Positions 9,001 through 15,000 of a stretch of 18,561 bases of DNA are shown here, piece after piece. Where the stretch lies: IMG/VR virus record IMGVR_UViG_2671180846_000018; one strand, 5' to 3'. A program made the position numbers. Numbering within the stretch: the stretch's first letter is position 1; each line of letters opens with the position of its first letter. The stretch is from a virus (lineage: Duplodnaviria > Heunggongvirae > Uroviricota > Caudoviricetes).

Positions 9001-12000
9001 AAATTTTCATAAATAGCGAAAACCCGCGAGGTCGCCGCCCCGTAACCTGTCGGATCNNNNNNNNNNNNNNNNNNNNNNNNNNNNNNNNNNNNNNNNNNNN
9101 NNNNNNNNNNNNNNNNNNNNNNNNNNNNNNNACAACAACCCGCAACATCCGCTTTCCTAACCAAATGATTGAACAAATTAACATCGCTCTTGAGCAAAAA
9201 GGGTCTGGGAATTTCTCAGCCTGGGTCATTGAAGCCTGCCGTCGGAGACTAACGTCAGAAAAGAGAGCATATACATCAATCCAAAGTGATGATGGATGAA
9301 CATCCCGGTTTCTTCCACCATCGCACCGGAAAAGCGACTATGAGGGTAACCCTGCGTCTGTCNNNNNNNNNNNNNNNNNNNNNNNNNNNNNNNNNNNNNN
9401 NNNNNNNNNNNNAAGGAATTCCCCGTCGGGCTACGGTCATGGTTAATGCGGGAATACGGCGACGATACAGCGCAGCTAAAAGGGTAATGGACAGATAGAG
9501 CGGTTTATTTCATTCCACAGGATTCTGAGTGCCCCCCTCCTCCAATAGGCTGAGCATCCACCTATATAGTTTTAATTTTCATCAATCCATTTAACTATCG
9601 TTTAATTGTTGTCACATAGGATTCTGCCGTTTTTAACAATGCAGGATAATAAGATGAAAAAAATGTTGTTTTCTGCCGCTCTGGCAATGCTTATTACAGG
9701 ATGTGCTCAACAGACGTTTACTGTTGGAAACAAACCGACAGCAGTAACACCAAAGGAAACCATCACCCATCACTTCTTCGTTTCGGGAATTGGACAGGAG
9801 AAAACTGTTGATGCAGCCAAAATTTGTGGCGGCGCAGAAAATGTTGTTAAAACAGAAACCCAGCAAACATTCGTAAATGGATTGCTCGGTTTTATTACTT
9901 TAGGCATTTATACTCCGCTGGAAGCGCGTGTGTATTGCTCACAATAATTGCATGAGTTGCCCATCGATATGGGCAGCTCTATCTGCACTGCTCATTAATA
10001 TACGTCTGGGTTCCTTCCAGTTGTTTTTGCATAGTGATCAGCCTCTCTCTGAGGGTGAAATAATCCCGTTCAGCGGTGTCTGCCAGTCGGGGGGAGGCTG
10101 CATTATCCACGCCGGAGGCGGTGGTGGCTTCACGCACTGACTGACAGACTGCTTTGATGTGCAACCGACGACGACCAGCGGCAACATCATCACGCAGAGC
10201 ATCATTTTCAGCTTTCGCATCAGCTAACTCCTTCGTGTATTTTGCATCGAGCGCAGCAACATCACGCTGACGCATCTGCATGTCAGTAATTGCCGCGTTC
10301 GCCAGCTTCAGTTCTCTGGCATTTTTGTCGCGCTGGGCTTTGTAGGTAATGGCGTTATCACGGTAATGATTAACAGCCCATGACAGGCAGACGATGATGC
10401 AGATAACCAGAGCGGAGATAATCGCGGTTACTCTGTTCATTGCTGACCCCACAAACAGATTTCACGCTCAATCTCACGACGAGTCATGAGACCTTTCCAT
10501 TGCTTACCGCCAGCATATGTCCAGCGACGTAGCTGATCACATGCGCCTTTGATATCGCCCTGGTTTATTTTGCGAAGAAGCGTCGATGTNNNNNNNNNNN
10601 NNNNNNNNNNNNNNNNNNNNNNNNNNNNNNNNNNNNNNNNNNNCGACAGTGGCAAGGTCTTTATTCAAGAGTGCTTTGCATTCTGCTTTGGTATACGTTT
10701 TACCGAGCATGATGTCTTTTCCTGTATGCCCGTGACATACAGTCCATACACCAACAATATCTTTGTATGGTATGTAGCTGACACCTTCCAGACCATCGTT
10801 ACCACTTGGGCCAGTGATTAACACTGATGCTATAGCAATTGCTCCGCCACCAATAGCAGCAGCAACGGCTTTTCGTAATGATGGAGGCATTATTCACCTC
10901 TCGCAGCCTTGCGCTTATCTTCTTTAATCTTGAAATAAAGGTTTGTCAGGTACGTCAGCAGGCCAAATACCAGGCTACCCAGCACACCTATTGCTGCCCA
11001 CTGTGAGGGCGTGACTTTATCGAGCAGCTGTAAAAACCAGTAACCGGCACTACCTGCTGAGGTGCCATAGGCGACACCCGTTGTTAACTTATCCATGGAT
11101 TTCATAACCCCACCTCGCAGACAAAGCGGGTGTAAATTGAGGGAATACAACGTATCGCAAAAAAGCAGAAACGTAACAGACTCGGAGTCAGTGAATAACT
11201 CAGGTATTGGGTTATCAGCTAATATCGAGACTCAAAAAATGGAAAAACCCGCTCGACGGCGGGTTTAAGCTGTGTGACGAAGTAACCACTCTTAACAGCA
11301 TAACCAATTTTTTACGTACGTAAACCACTAAATGATATTTGCGAGAATGCTACCGAGTATTGAAAACACCACTACAAATACATAAACAAATCTCAACAAA
11401 TAACCAACAAATAATTTCCAGCGTTATTTTTAGCCGATTTAAATTGAACCTTCAAATTATAGGGCACTTATAAATAACAGCCATTAATATAAATTGGCTA
11501 ATAGATTTATTTTTATTCAGCCAAGAGCCATGAATAGGATTCGATAGAAAAAGTTCAGATAAAAATAGAGATCTACTTCACAAATCAAATGAGAAACCAA
11601 AACTTACATCTTGAAATAATCACATTGATTAGATGAATATTTATCGCGCAGTGACATCATTTTTTAATAATAGTTCAAAAAAAAGGGCTCACGATGAAAA
11701 AATTAACAGTGGCAATTTCTGCTGTAGCTGCATCAGTACTGATGGCGATGTCTGCTCAGGCAGCTGAAATTTATAATAAAGACAGTAACAAGCTGGATCT
11801 GTACGGGAAAGTTAATGCTAAGCACTACTTCTCCTCTAATGATGCAGATGATGGTGATACTACTTATGCCCGTCTTGGCTTCAAAGGTGAAACCCAAATC
11901 AACGATCAACTGACTGGTTTCGGTCAGTGGGAATATGAATTCAAAGGCAACCGCGCTGAATCTCAAGGTTCCTCCAAAGATAAAACCCGTCTTGCCTTCG

Positions 12001-15000
12001 CTGGCCTGAAATTCGGTGACTACGGCTCCATCGATTATGGCCGTAACTACGGTGTAGCATACGATATTGGTGCATGGACCGACGTTCTGCCAGAATTCGG
12101 TGGCGATACCTGGACCCAAACAGATGTATTCATGACTGGTCGCACCACAGGTGTTGCAACTTATCGTAACAATGACTTCTTTGGTCTGGTTGATGGTCTG
12201 AACTTTGCTGCTCAGTATCAGGGTAAAAATGACCGTACTGACGTAACTCAAGCTAATGGTGATGGTTTCGGTTTCTCCACTACTTATGAGTATGAAGGTT
12301 TCGGCGTAGGTGCAACCTATGCTAAATCTGATCGCACTAATAATCAGGTTATCTACGGTAACAACAGCCTGAATGCATCTGGTCAAAATGCTGAAGTATG
12401 GGCAGCTGGTCTGAAATATGATGCGAACAACATCTATCTGGCTACTACCTATTCTGAAACCCAAAACATGACTGTTTTTGGTAAAAACCATATTGCCAAC
12501 AAAGCACAAAACTTCGAAGTAGTTGCACAATATCAGTTCGACTTCGGTCTGCGTCCGTCCGTTGCTTATCTGCAATCTAAAGGGAAAGACTTGGGTGCTT
12601 GGGGTGATCAGGACCTGGTTGAATATATTGATGTAGGTGCAACCTATTACTTCAACAAAAATATGTCCACTTTTGTTGACTACAAAATCAACCTGATTGA
12701 TAAGAGCGATTTCACGAAAGCATCTGGCGTTGCTACCGATGATATCGTTGCTGTAGGTATGGTTTACCAGTTCTAATTTGATTACTAAAACATATGTTGT
12801 GGGAGGCTTTGCCTCCCCAACATATAAGTGGCTCCCTCAAGCCACTTCCTTTAGAAGCACAACCTTGCTTCTAACTATATAAACCTTCTGTTATATATTA
12901 CCCTTTATTTTTGGGGGCGTTTCAACGCCCCATTCTTAATAATTTTTAGTAAACAATTGGCATATTAATTAGAGTTATTAACAACGATATCCATCTCTAA
13001 CCGGATATCTAATGCCATTAACATCCCTTCAATTATGCCCTCAGCCTTCTGTAACCTTTTCCCGATATAACCATCAGAGCAGCAATGCTTACCTGCCAGT
13101 GACATGAATGTCATACCGACTACATAATAATCTACTAATAAATCGTGCAAATCGCTGTTGTTCTTTTTCAGACGGGCCATGCACCCGCAAATGATCATCG
13201 CGTCATCGTCACAACATTGCGGGCGAGATTTTACTTTTGAAGTAATTAATCCCTTAAAACCGGCGGCAATGGACGACCAGGTCACATCTTCATGATTATT
13301 AGCCGCCCACGCTCCCCAACGCTCAAGAACCATCTGAATATCACGCATCAACTTACTCCACAAAAATCAGACCAGAACGCCAATTACAAGCAAAAATCAA
13401 CGAAACAGTATTAGTTGATTGTTATCTCTGACTTCATACTCCTGCTCCTGTCAGGGTTTTGGCGTAATTCTTCAGTATTCGGTAATCGGTCAAAACAGAA
13501 CCGGGGAAACGATATAAGCGCAGACGCCCCCAGCGGTGGCGAAGACGTTCTGCCATATAAAACTCAAACATCATTCATTCCCCATTTCGGTGATGGTCAG
13601 TTCCAGCCTCCCACCTTTGGTAACAGGCATCTTCACAACGCGGTAATCAACGACCTGAGCATCATCCAGCCAGAAACCTGCTTTAGTGAGTGCGTCAAAA
13701 GCGGCTTTTTGCAGATTATCCAGGTCACGGCGACGGCGATCCGGCATGTGGCACTCAATGCGGATTTTCACAGGCATAGCCAAGCCGATATCCAGCATTG
13801 CGTTTTTAATGATTCGGGCGACGTTATCGCGGTATGCCTGCCCCTCTGCGCTGACGTGCGTGCGCCCGCGATTATGGCGGTAATAGCGATTATTGCTCGG
13901 AGGCCAGGGTAATGTGATGCTGTAGGTATTCACGCCTTGATTACCCCCTCTTTCAGCCAGATAACCTGCGTTCTCGCCATACCTTCCAGCGCGCATTCTT
14001 TTGCGTACTCAGCATCGACAAAATGCGTGCGGCGGTCGATTTCGTCGTGACAGGCAGAACAGGCAATGGTGGCAATAAGGTCTGGCGGTTTAATACCGGT
14101 GCCACACAGTCCAGCCAGCCGGATATGTGCCAGTACAGACGTTTCAGGGTTGCCATTGCATACGCCAGGGATTCTTACCTGGCATTCGCGACCACGCGCT
14201 GCTTTTCTCAAATCAGCCATGATTCCTCCTTGCTGCCAGTCGCAACCATTTTTTATCAACCAGGCTGGCGGTATATCCGAGCAGTGTTGGTATTTCGGAT
14301 GGTTTTAGCTCAGGCTTACGCTTACGACGATTTGGTACTCTGTAGATGTGTCCGTTCATGACACGAATAAGCGGTGTAGCCATTACGCCTCCTGCTTGTC
14401 GCGCAGCAGCTGGAACTCGCAGCTCTGCGGAATAGTCAGGTGGCAGCCAATATTCATCGCCCAGGCTTCAACCTTACACAGGAAGACATACATCTCTCCG
14501 GTATCAAGATCGGAGGTATGGCGTAACGACTGGATAGTAGTGATTTCGCCGGTTACGACATCAACCAGGTCCTTGGTTTCATAACCGAGGTATGTGTGTT
14601 TGAGAGCATCTTTTACCCATGCTGCGGTAGCGAACGATTTCCCCCTGCGGATAAGGTATTCACTGATTTCGCTGTACCACATGTGGCTAAGTGCATTCTG
14701 GGAAAGACTGCGTCTCTCGCGCCACGGTTTAAGCACCATGCGAAAGCACTTGCCGTCTTCCAAATAAGGCTGGAGCTGCTGACCGATAGCGGTGAAGTTA
14801 CCGCGATGCAGTTTGATGCCGTCTTGTGGGAGGTTCACGCTTCACCTCCGCAGAGGTCAAACGCTGGATAAAGAAAATCGCAGGTGCATTTCTGCATCTG
14901 TGACGGGAGAAGATAGTTTAGATTGTATGTGCGCATAAACGTCCCCGTTTAGCGCAGAAGTCACCGGAGGAGTTCAAACTCCGGTGACTTAATTATGACA

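What the first reader, a model, noticed from the sequence alone, without database searches (positions are those of the whole stretch)
11694..12776. Intact porin moron between Q and the lysis cassette
A complete 360-aa OmpC/PhoE-family porin with signal peptide and C-terminal Phe is encoded on the strand opposite to the late genes, inside an AT-rich island (11150-12960). This is the nmpC/lc position of DLP12 and PA-2; in E. coli K-12 the gene is disrupted by an insertion sequence (from memory), whereas no insertion is seen here. An expressed prophage porin changes outer-membrane permeability and phage receptor repertoire.
Basis: partly seen in the sequence, partly recalled or inferred. Interest (0 to 1): 0.5.

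Follow-up and report, generated by a model that had tools for sequence, protein, structure and literature searches.

The report
Known prophage porin gene NmpC/Lc, intact
This is an intact copy of the well-known NmpC/Lc/OmpD porin gene that lambda-like prophages of E. coli carry between their Q and lysis genes, with its known IpeX regulatory RNA tail; about a third of complete E. coli genomes have an uninterrupted copy, so it is ordinary.

Summary
Window 11694-12776 (+) is one uninterrupted 360-aa ORF with a full-length Gram-negative porin match, a 23-residue signal peptide and a C-terminal Phe. It lies between the antiterminator Q and the holin, both on the opposite strand.

The interpretation also holds, but nothing here is new.
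- The 2.3-kb Q-porin-holin segment is 100% identical to many O26/O103/O111 E. coli chromosomes.
- The exact protein occurs on at least 1000 public contigs, named NmpC, OmpD or OmpC.
- It is 90% identical to reconstructed K-12 NmpC, 91% to phage PA-2 Lc and 82% to Salmonella OmpD.
- K-12 nmpC is indeed split by IS5 after codon 346. That is the exception: 1923 of 2246 genomes carrying the 3' junction have it uninterrupted.

- The 165-nt structured 3' UTR (12777-12941) corresponds to the published IpeX sRNA, which represses OmpC/OmpF.
- The upstream region is about 97-98% identical to the experimentally active K-12 nmpC promoter region and keeps both CRP sites annotated in PA-2.
- The gene is a recombination mosaic. 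Its first 344 nt are 99.7% identical to K-12 and the rest 83%, with amino-acid changes concentrated in predicted loops L4-L6.

Verdict: already known, low interest.

The parts
11694..12776 (+). Porin gene (NmpC/Lc/OmpD type), 360 aa, intact
   Evidence: ORF; Pfam Porin_1 full length, E 3.4e-153; 90% to K-12 NmpC, 91% to PA-2 Lc and 82% to Salmonella OmpD; exact protein on >=1000 public contigs.
11694..11762 (+). Signal peptide, 23 codons ([23 protein letters not shown] | AEIYNK)
   Evidence: Identical to the annotated sig_peptide of PA-2 lc; mature PDB porin chains align from residue 24.
12038..12776 (+). Diverged 3' two-thirds of the gene (recombination mosaic) encoding loops L3-L8
   Evidence: CDS nt 1-344 are 99.7% identical to K-12 nmpC and nt 345-1025 are 83.0%, with two in-frame indels. 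28 of 37 differing protein columns lie outside AF2-predicted strands, mostly in L4, L5 and L6.
11565..11585 (.). Proximal CRP site (ATAGAGATCTACTTCACAAAT)
   Evidence: Maps onto the misc_binding CRP feature 1363-1383 of PA-2 record J02580 and is identical in sequence. PMC11677980 states that PnmpC is activated by Crp at two operators.
11270..11290 (.). Distal CRP site (CTGTGTGACGAAGTAACCACT)
   Evidence: Maps onto the CRP feature 1067-1087 of J02580 and is identical.
11611..11648 (+). Candidate porin promoter: TTGAAA (11611-11616), 17-18 nt spacer, TGAATA/GAATAT (11634-11640), start at G11646 or G11648 (inferred)
   Evidence: Best relaxed -35/-10 match in the spacer. It puts the proximal CRP site near -71. 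This part of the spacer differs from K-12 at 3 positions; in K-12 the -199..-1 region drives nmpC and the start site is a G (PMC11677980). The strict consensus scan found nothing here, so the exact hexamers are inference.
12777..12941 (+). Structured 3' UTR, corresponding to the IpeX sRNA: a series of stem-loops ending in a terminator
   Evidence: MFE -61.6 kcal/mol, z -10.3 against shuffles. About 96-98% identical to the K-12 and PA-2 nmpC/lc downstream regions. The diverged 3' UTR of phage P7 nmpC keeps the same hairpins. IpeX is described as 167 nt and processed from the phage porin transcript (PMC12197685).
12914..12941 (+). Intrinsic terminator of the porin/IpeX transcript (GGGGCGTTTCAACGCCCC + ATTCTTAATAATTT)
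   Evidence: Terminator scan; stem conserved in K-12, PA-2, ev207, Turner and P7.
12965..13348 (-). Late-gene antiterminator Q (quuD)
   Evidence: Pfam Phage_antitermQ, E 4e-53; annotated quuD in the identical O26-type sequence. The mechanical ORF extends to a TTG at 13363.
10890..11105 (-). Holin (essD, phage 21 type), first gene of the lysis cassette
   Evidence: Pfam Phage_holin_2_1, E 3.5e-35; essD annotation in the identical sequence.
11245..11266 (-). Terminator-like hairpin on the late-gene strand, upstream of the holin
   Evidence: Terminator scan. This stretch is also shared with phages cdtI and SfII, which did not match the porin gene, so it belongs to the lysis-side flank rather than to the porin module.

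Best explanation
The ORF is the NmpC/Lc/OmpD-type general-diffusion porin that lambdoid prophages carry as an independently transcribed cargo gene (a moron) between Q and the lysis cassette, on the strand opposite to the late operon.

Shown here:
- It is intact and full length, with signal peptide, PEFGG constriction-loop motif and C-terminal Phe.
- It sits in the same place as nmpC in DLP12 and lc in PA-2.
- Its spacer upstream of the porin start is about 97-98% identical to K-12 and keeps both CRP sites annotated in PA-2.
- Its 3' UTR is a highly structured RNA of about 165 nt, nearly identical to the K-12 region from which the IpeX sRNA is described.

Inferred:
- In the lysogen the gene is transcribed from its own CRP-activated sigma-70 promoter, with a start near G11646.
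- The precursor is exported by Sec, cleaved after Ala23 and assembled by BAM into a trimeric 16-strand porin.
- The same transcript yields IpeX, which lowers OmpC and OmpF. The lysogen therefore replaces part of its host porins with the phage porin, changing permeability and the phage and colicin receptor set.
- On induction, Q-modified late transcription must run antisense through IpeX and the porin gene to reach the holin.
- This allele differs from the K-12/PA-2 allele because its 3' two-thirds was exchanged by recombination for a diverged version with shorter surface loops L4 and L5.
For: - ORF and domain.
- Context Q / porin / holin, plus Rz, Bor, terminase and portal.
- Same layout in K-12 DLP12 with IS5-split nmpC. 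Same layout in PA-2.
- Identities of 90%, 91% and 82% to NmpC, Lc and OmpD.
- NCBIfam PhoE and OmpF equivalog cut-offs not reached.
- 100% identical 2.3 kb in many O26/O103/O111 genomes and 92-98% in more than 30 temperate phages.
- Exact protein on >=1000 contigs.
- Upstream region conserved, including the annotated CRP sites.
- K-12 PnmpC active, start site a G, Crp-activated, repressed by OmpR, IHF and MprA: PMC11677980.
- 3' UTR structure z -10.3, conserved in K-12 and PA-2, same hairpins in diverged P7.
- IpeX made from the phage porin transcript and repressing OmpC/OmpF: PMC12197685, PMC5069750, PMC8065619.
- NmpC protein detected in STEC O26:H11 and O111:H8 and in strain PMK5: PMC12136435, PMC9731836.
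- Mosaic structure and loop-focused variation.
- Viable phage 434B carries the DLP12 Q-nmpC::IS5-S segment, so late transcription can cross this gene.
Against: - No expression data exist for the strain the window comes from.
- The strict sigma-70 consensus scan found no promoter in 11151-11693. The proposed hexamers are weak, and the published promoter figure could not be read.
- The primary IpeX paper (PMC1347279) is not held, so the IpeX ends are matched only by length (167 nt against 165 nt from stop codon to U-tract) and by sequence identity to K-12.
- A 1998 paper title calls nmpC of E. coli B 'quiescent', so an intact gene need not be strongly expressed.
- The AF2 model is of moderate quality (mean pLDDT 63). 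Loop assignments are trustworthy only for residues of about 170-360.
- The late promoter pR' on the minus strand was not located.
Confidence: 0.9

Rival explanations
1. The gene is intact but silent (quiescent) in its host. H-NS-type silencing of the AT-rich upstream region or a weak promoter keeps it off, so it has no effect on the outer membrane.
For: The upstream spacer has 33% GC. There is no strong consensus promoter. The title of Prilipov et al. 1998, cited in PMC3333887, calls nmpC of E. coli B quiescent. PMC11677980 lists OmpR, IHF and MprA as repressors.
Against: The near-identical K-12 promoter produces a transcript detectable by 5' RACE, and deleting it has a phenotype (PMC11677980). 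NmpC protein is detected in STEC O26:H11 and O111:H8 and in strain PMK5 (PMC12136435, PMC9731836). Full-length conservation of the ORF in 1923 genomes argues for selection on the product.
Confidence: 0.15
2. It is a chromosomal OmpC or PhoE paralogue that merely lies next to phage genes, as the RefSeq name 'ompC: porin OmpC' suggests, and not phage cargo.
For: NCBIfam subfamily 'porin OmpC' passes its cut-off (517.7 against 484), and RefSeq labels it ompC.
Against: The gene sits between Q and the holin inside a lambdoid late region. The same gene in the same place occurs in over 30 sequenced temperate phages. It scores far higher against OmpD/NmpC clusters (629-724 bits) than against OmpC, PhoE or OmpF chains (405-450 bits). 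The PhoE and OmpF equivalog cut-offs are missed.
Confidence: 0.02
3. The main function of the module is the IpeX RNA, which removes OmpC/OmpF as receptors for superinfecting phages. The porin then serves only to compensate for the lost host porins.
For: IpeX is reported to repress OmpC and OmpF (PMC5069750, PMC8065619). The 3' UTR structure is conserved even in the 76%-identical P7 nmpC module.
Against: This is not really exclusive of the main explanation. The porin ORF is under clear purifying constraint in strands and diversifies in loops, so the protein matters too. Nothing was tested here on phage exclusion.
Confidence: 0.3

Closest known systems
NmpC of the cryptic prophage DLP12 (qsr') of E. 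coli K-12
   Same: Same position and orientation (quuD - porin - essD). The first 148 residues are identical and overall identity is 90%. The spacer upstream of the porin start and the 3' UTR are about 97-98% identical.
   Different: The K-12 copy is split by IS5B after codon 346, whereas this one is uninterrupted. The 3' two-thirds of this allele is only 83% identical in DNA, with 3- and 2-residue deletions in loops L4 and L5.
Lc (protein 2) of lambdoid phage PA-2, GenBank J02580
   Same: 91% identical protein, identical signal peptide, same divergent arrangement with the lysis genes, and both annotated CRP sites conserved.
   Different: Lc is the 365-aa K-12-like allele and differs from this one in loops L4-L6. 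Receptor and exclusion phenotypes known for PA-2 were not tested for this allele.
OmpD of Salmonella enterica
   Same: 82% identity. Loop L4 length and part of the L5 sequence (TNNQV...LNA) resemble OmpD more than NmpC, which is why some sources name this protein 'porin OmpD [E. coli]'.
   Different: From established knowledge, OmpD is a chromosomal major porin and not in a Q-S phage context. OmpD has a 5-residue insertion in L6 that is absent here.
nmpC of plasmid prophage P7
   Same: Homologous porin (76% DNA identity) followed by a 3' UTR with the same series of hairpins and a terminator.
   Different: Different phage type (P1-like) and different neighbours (odaA, ssb). The UTR sequence is strongly diverged.
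Other cargo genes in the Q-S interval (Blc lipocalin in phage ev087, stx, cdt-phage methylase)
   Same: Same insertion hot spot downstream of Q. In ev087 the same Q allele is followed by an opposite-strand cargo gene.
   Different: Unrelated products. Homology to ev087 stops about 25 nt before the Q stop codon.

Membership tests
General bacterial porin family (Pfam Porin_1, OmpC/OmpF/PhoE type) | Full-length match to the family profile | tested here: met
   PF00267, residues 29-360 to profile 1-337/337, E 3.4e-153; E about 1e-130 to solved OmpC, PhoE and OmpK36 chains.
General bacterial porin family (Pfam Porin_1, OmpC/OmpF/PhoE type) | Cleavable Sec signal peptide and C-terminal aromatic residue (Phe) | tested here: met
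   The 23-residue signal ending AQA is identical to the annotated one of PA-2 lc. Mature PDB chains align from residue 24. The sequence ends in YQF.
General bacterial porin family (Pfam Porin_1, OmpC/OmpF/PhoE type) | 16-strand beta-barrel with an inward-folded loop L3 carrying PEFGG | tested here: met
   The AF2 model gives 16 strands (moderate confidence, pLDDT 63 overall and under 50 in L3). PEFGG is at residues 133-137 and invariant across 30 homologues.
General bacterial porin family (Pfam Porin_1, OmpC/OmpF/PhoE type) | Trimer formation and channel conductance | not testable with these tools
   Needs biochemistry.
NmpC/Lc/OmpD prophage porin module | Closest relatives are NmpC, Lc and OmpD rather than OmpC, OmpF or PhoE | tested here: met
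   90-91% to NmpC and Lc, 82% to OmpD. 629-724 bits against those clusters compared with 405-450 bits against OmpC, PhoE and OmpF chains.
NmpC/Lc/OmpD prophage porin module | Located between Q and the holin of a lambdoid phage, on the opposite strand | tested here: met
   Same layout in DLP12, PA-2 and more than 30 phages.
NmpC/Lc/OmpD prophage porin module | Own CRP-dependent promoter upstream | tested here: inconclusive
   The sequence is about 97-98% identical to the active K-12 promoter region, and both PA-2 CRP sites are identical (PMC11677980). The hexamers and start site are inferred and no transcription data exist for this strain.
NmpC/Lc/OmpD prophage porin module | IpeX sRNA in the 3' UTR | tested here: met
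   About 96-98% identity to the K-12 and PA-2 downstream regions; strong conserved structure; length from stop to U-tract is 165 nt against the published 167 nt (PMC12197685). The exact ends were not verified because the primary paper is not held.
OmpC proper (orthologue of E. coli ompC) | Orthology to chromosomal ompC | tested here: not met
   Only the NCBIfam 'subfamily' model passes. The locus is a prophage late region, and similarity to OmpC chains is much lower than to NmpC/OmpD. The RefSeq gene name 'ompC' is a naming artefact.
PhoE / OmpF equivalogs | Score above the NCBIfam equivalog cut-off | tested here: not met
   PhoE 506.7 against a cut-off of 599; OmpF 483.5 against 583.

The most novel reading that the evidence does not exclude
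The recombined 3' two-thirds of this allele, with shorter OmpD-like loops L4 and L5, gives the lysogen a different phage, colicin or antibody recognition surface from the classical NmpC/Lc. In addition, convergent Q-dependent late transcription through IpeX and the porin gene works as a switch that shuts both off at prophage induction. Neither idea was tested, and both would be modest extensions of known biology.
Probability: 0.15. Interest if true: 0.3.

Novelty: already known. Interest (0 to 1): 0.1.

Why it matters
It matters little for discovery. The gene, its position, its promoter region, its IS5-disrupted K-12 counterpart and its IpeX RNA are all in the literature and databases, and this exact allele is widespread in EHEC O26/O103/O111.

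It is useful for annotation in three ways.
- RefSeq calls the gene 'ompC', which hides that it is prophage cargo.
- The IpeX 3' UTR is not listed in the RefSeq K-12 annotation of this interval, and the Rfam gathering-threshold scan of the window returned no match there.
- The claim that nmpC is 'in most cases' inactivated by IS5 does not hold for complete E. coli genomes.

An expressed phage porin together with an OmpC/OmpF-repressing RNA can alter antibiotic permeability and phage susceptibility of pathogenic strains.

Tried and rejected
- A strict sigma-70 scan found no promoter upstream of the porin. A relaxed scan gave only weak candidates. The promoter call therefore rests on homology to K-12 and PA-2.
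- I tried to locate the Q-dependent late promoter pR' on the minus strand in 12777-12964. Candidates were TTGAAA-N19-TAATAT and TTAATA-N18-AATTAT. Comparison with phage ev087, which has the same Q but different cargo, left only short conserved blocks, among them ATATAACAG at 12896-12888. This is not resolved.
- The Rfam gathering-threshold scan returned no match in the porin 3' UTR.
- The primary papers could not be read because they are not held: IpeX (PMC1347279), E. coli B nmpC (PMC107294) and qsr' (PMC218982).
- The 280-aa antisense ORF 11733-12575 and the small ORFs in the upstream spacer have no Pfam match and are treated as shadow ORFs.
- No E. coli genome in the collection matched 80% or more of the whole 18.5-kb window in one place, so the source strain was not identified. 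Mosaicism, IS elements and masked N runs are the likely reason.
- MAFFT placed the diverged P7 UTR out of register, so the pair counts understate conservation. P7 was therefore folded on its own.
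Full report
**1. Observation**

The window holds a single uninterrupted ORF at 11694-12776 on the plus strand, with an ATG start and 360 aa.
- It matches Pfam Porin_1 over the whole profile, 1-337/337, E 3.4e-153.
- It matches solved OmpC, PhoE, OmpK36 and OmpF chains at E 1e-116 to 1e-136. The mature chains align from query residue 24.
- The N-terminus [29 protein letters not shown] is identical to the annotated 23-codon signal peptide of phage PA-2 lc.
- The protein ends in YQF.
- The constriction-loop motif PEFGG (133-137) is invariant in 30 homologues.
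- An AlphaFold2 model has 16 strands. Its mean pLDDT is 63, and it is good only from about residue 170 onward.

The neighbours lie on the minus strand.
- Q antiterminator, 12965-13348 (Phage_antitermQ).
- P21-type holin, 10890-11105.
- Rz, RusA and YbcO, plus terminase and portal further on.
- A plus-strand Bor gene.

The region is moderately AT-rich: 39.8% GC for 11150-12960 against 49.2% for the window. Most of that comes from the 543-bp upstream spacer (33.3%); the coding sequence is 43.4%.

**2. What it is**

- The 2301-bp segment 11100-13400 is 100% identical to many O26, O103 and O111 E. coli chromosomes. It is found at 80% coverage or more in 2398 of 5426 complete genomes.
- 36 phage records hold at least 80% of it; the listed ones are 92-98% identical temperate phages in which the gene is labelled OmpD, NmpC or OmpC.
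- The exact protein is on at least 1000 public contigs, in a 90% cluster of 2741 members.
- In K-12 MG1655 the DLP12 prophage has the same order, quuD - nmpC (opposite strand) - essD. Its nmpC is a pseudogene split by IS5B after codon 346.
- GenBank J02580 (phage PA-2) shows lc diverging from the R/Rz lysis genes, with two annotated CRP sites between them.
- Identities are 90% to reconstructed K-12 NmpC, 91% to Lc and 82% to Salmonella OmpD.
- The NCBIfam PhoE and OmpF equivalog cut-offs are not reached. Only the broad 'porin OmpC' subfamily model passes, which explains the misleading RefSeq gene name 'ompC'.

**3. How common is the intact state**

I searched a 231-bp probe spanning the K-12 IS5 site and the stop codon (12630-12860).
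- It matches 2246 of 5426 genomes.
- In 1923 of these the junction is continuous.
- The listed split cases include K-12 MG1655 and laboratory strains.

Independent disruption also occurs: two O111:H11 genomes carry an ISVsa5 insertion within this segment, where the porin is annotated in two parts (H1 and H2). Intactness is therefore the rule. One caveat is that the probe tests a single junction and not the whole ORF.

**4. Regulatory parts**

The spacer upstream of the porin start is about 97-98% identical to K-12, and 95% to PA-2 over the aligned region. Both PA-2 CRP sites map to identical sequence at window 11270-11290 and 11565-11585.

PMC11677980 reports the following for K-12:
- The -199..-1 region is a sigma-70 promoter (PnmpC).
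- Its transcript is detectable by 5' RACE and starts at a G.
- It is activated by Crp and repressed by OmpR, IHF and MprA.

The best candidate here is TTGAAA (11611-11616), a 17-18 nt spacer, TGAATA/GAATAT, and a start at G11646 or G11648. This puts the proximal CRP site near -71. It is an inference, because the strict scan found nothing.

**5. The 3' UTR is IpeX**

- From the stop codon to the terminator U-tract (12777-12941) the RNA folds into a series of stem-loops ending in a terminator, at -61.6 kcal/mol and z -10.3.
- It is about 96-98% identical to the K-12 and PA-2 downstream regions. In the first hairpin and the terminator, the substitutions against K-12 fall in a bulge or a loop.
- The nmpC gene of plasmid prophage P7 is 76% identical in DNA. 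Its diverged 3' UTR folds into the same series of hairpins (z -6.5), with paired changes in the stems.
- Reviews describe IpeX as a 167-nt RNA of DLP12/PA-2 that is processed from the phage porin transcript and represses OmpC and OmpF (PMC12197685, PMC5069750, PMC8065619).
- In K-12 the IS5 lies between PnmpC and this RNA. In the window it does not.

**6. Allele structure**

- Against K-12, CDS nt 1-344 are 99.7% identical and nt 345-1025 are 83.0%. The second stretch has many synonymous changes and two in-frame indels. The flanks return to about 97-98%.
- This is a recombination mosaic with a breakpoint near window 12038.
- Of 37 differing protein columns, 28 lie outside predicted strands, mostly in L4, L5 and L6, although strands make up 57% of the mature protein.
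- L4 length and part of L5 resemble OmpD.

**7. Mechanism**

The shown and inferred steps are set out under the best explanation. In short:
- In the lysogen, the CRP-activated promoter makes a porin-IpeX transcript.
- The porin is exported and assembled as a trimer.
- IpeX lowers the host porins OmpC and OmpF.
- On induction, Q-modified late transcription must run antisense across the module to reach the holin.

Phage 434B is viable and carries the DLP12 Q-nmpC::IS5-S block, which shows that such read-through works.

A protein called NmpC is reported in proteomes of STEC O26:H11 and O111:H8 and of strain PMK5 (PMC12136435, PMC9731836). This supports expression in related strains but not in this one specifically.

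**8. Verdict**

The feature is already known and common. Interest is low (0.1).

Noticed in passing
window 12777-12941 (+); L007 2017-2215: The porin 3' UTR is a strongly structured RNA of about 165 nt (z -10.3) that matches the published IpeX sRNA. The RefSeq K-12 annotation of this interval lists no such feature, and the Rfam gathering-threshold scan of the window returned no match here. The diverged nmpC of plasmid prophage P7 keeps the same hairpin series.
   Followed up: yes
window 12038 (breakpoint); 12038-12776: The porin gene is a recombination mosaic: 99.7% identical to K-12 nmpC before nt 345 and 83% after. Amino-acid changes and indels concentrate in predicted surface loops L4-L6.
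   Followed up: yes
window 16816-16903 (-) and 16928-17000 (-): Rfam hits to the C4 antisense RNA (82.5 bits) and the isrK Hfq-binding RNA (64.1 bits). They lie at the 5' end of, or overlap, an ORF with Bro-N and P22 antirepressor C-terminal domains (16156-17001, minus strand). This looks like a P1/P7-style c4/ant immunity module inside a lambdoid prophage.
   Followed up: partly
window 292-347, 9057-9131, 9363-9412, 10590-10643, 18273-18322: Five runs of N (50-75 bases each) mask the sequence. The run at 10590-10643 lies inside the endolysin gene (rrrD homologue, about 10393-10890, minus strand) and breaks its ORF in the mechanical list.
   Followed up: partly
window 11245-11266 (-) and 11270-11290: A terminator-like hairpin on the late-gene strand lies about 140 nt upstream of the holin, next to the distal CRP site. 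This stretch is also present in phages cdtI and SfII, which did not match the porin gene, so it belongs to the lysis-side flank. Its role is unknown; it could insulate the lysis genes from unmodified transcription.
   Followed up: partly
L004 (phage Lambda_ev087) 1802-2860; window 12888-12896 (-): Phage ev087 has the same Q allele but carries a Blc lipocalin gene, also on the opposite strand, in place of the porin. Homology ends about 25 nt before the Q stop. Only short blocks are conserved downstream of Q, among them ATATAACAG, a candidate element of the unlocated late promoter or Q-utilisation site.
   Followed up: partly
window 9606-9947 (+): A Bor/Iss-type lipoprotein gene (Pfam Lambda_Bor, E 1e-30) lies downstream of Rz. 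It is a second opposite-strand cargo gene in the same late region.
   Followed up: partly
window 15060-15856 (-): Two overlapping small ORFs in the nin region. One has a HEPN domain (E 3e-6) and the other has no Pfam match. They may form a HEPN-based toxin-antitoxin or defence pair.
   Followed up: no
window 11707-11713 (+): CAGTGGC at codons 5-7 of the porin is complementary to what I recall as the 5' seed of the sRNA RybB (GCCACUG). PMC3333887 says nmpC mRNA is a RybB target in E. coli. The seed sequence is from memory and was not checked.
   Followed up: no
E. coli complete genomes: PMC11677980 states that nmpC is inactivated by IS5 'in most cases'. In the genome collection, 1923 of 2246 genomes with the porin 3' junction have it uninterrupted, and the listed split cases include K-12 MG1655 and laboratory strains.
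   Followed up: yes
window 17517-17864 (+): This ORF matches the integron cassette protein family VCH_CASS14 (E 6e-20), an unexpected family in a lambdoid early region.
   Followed up: no
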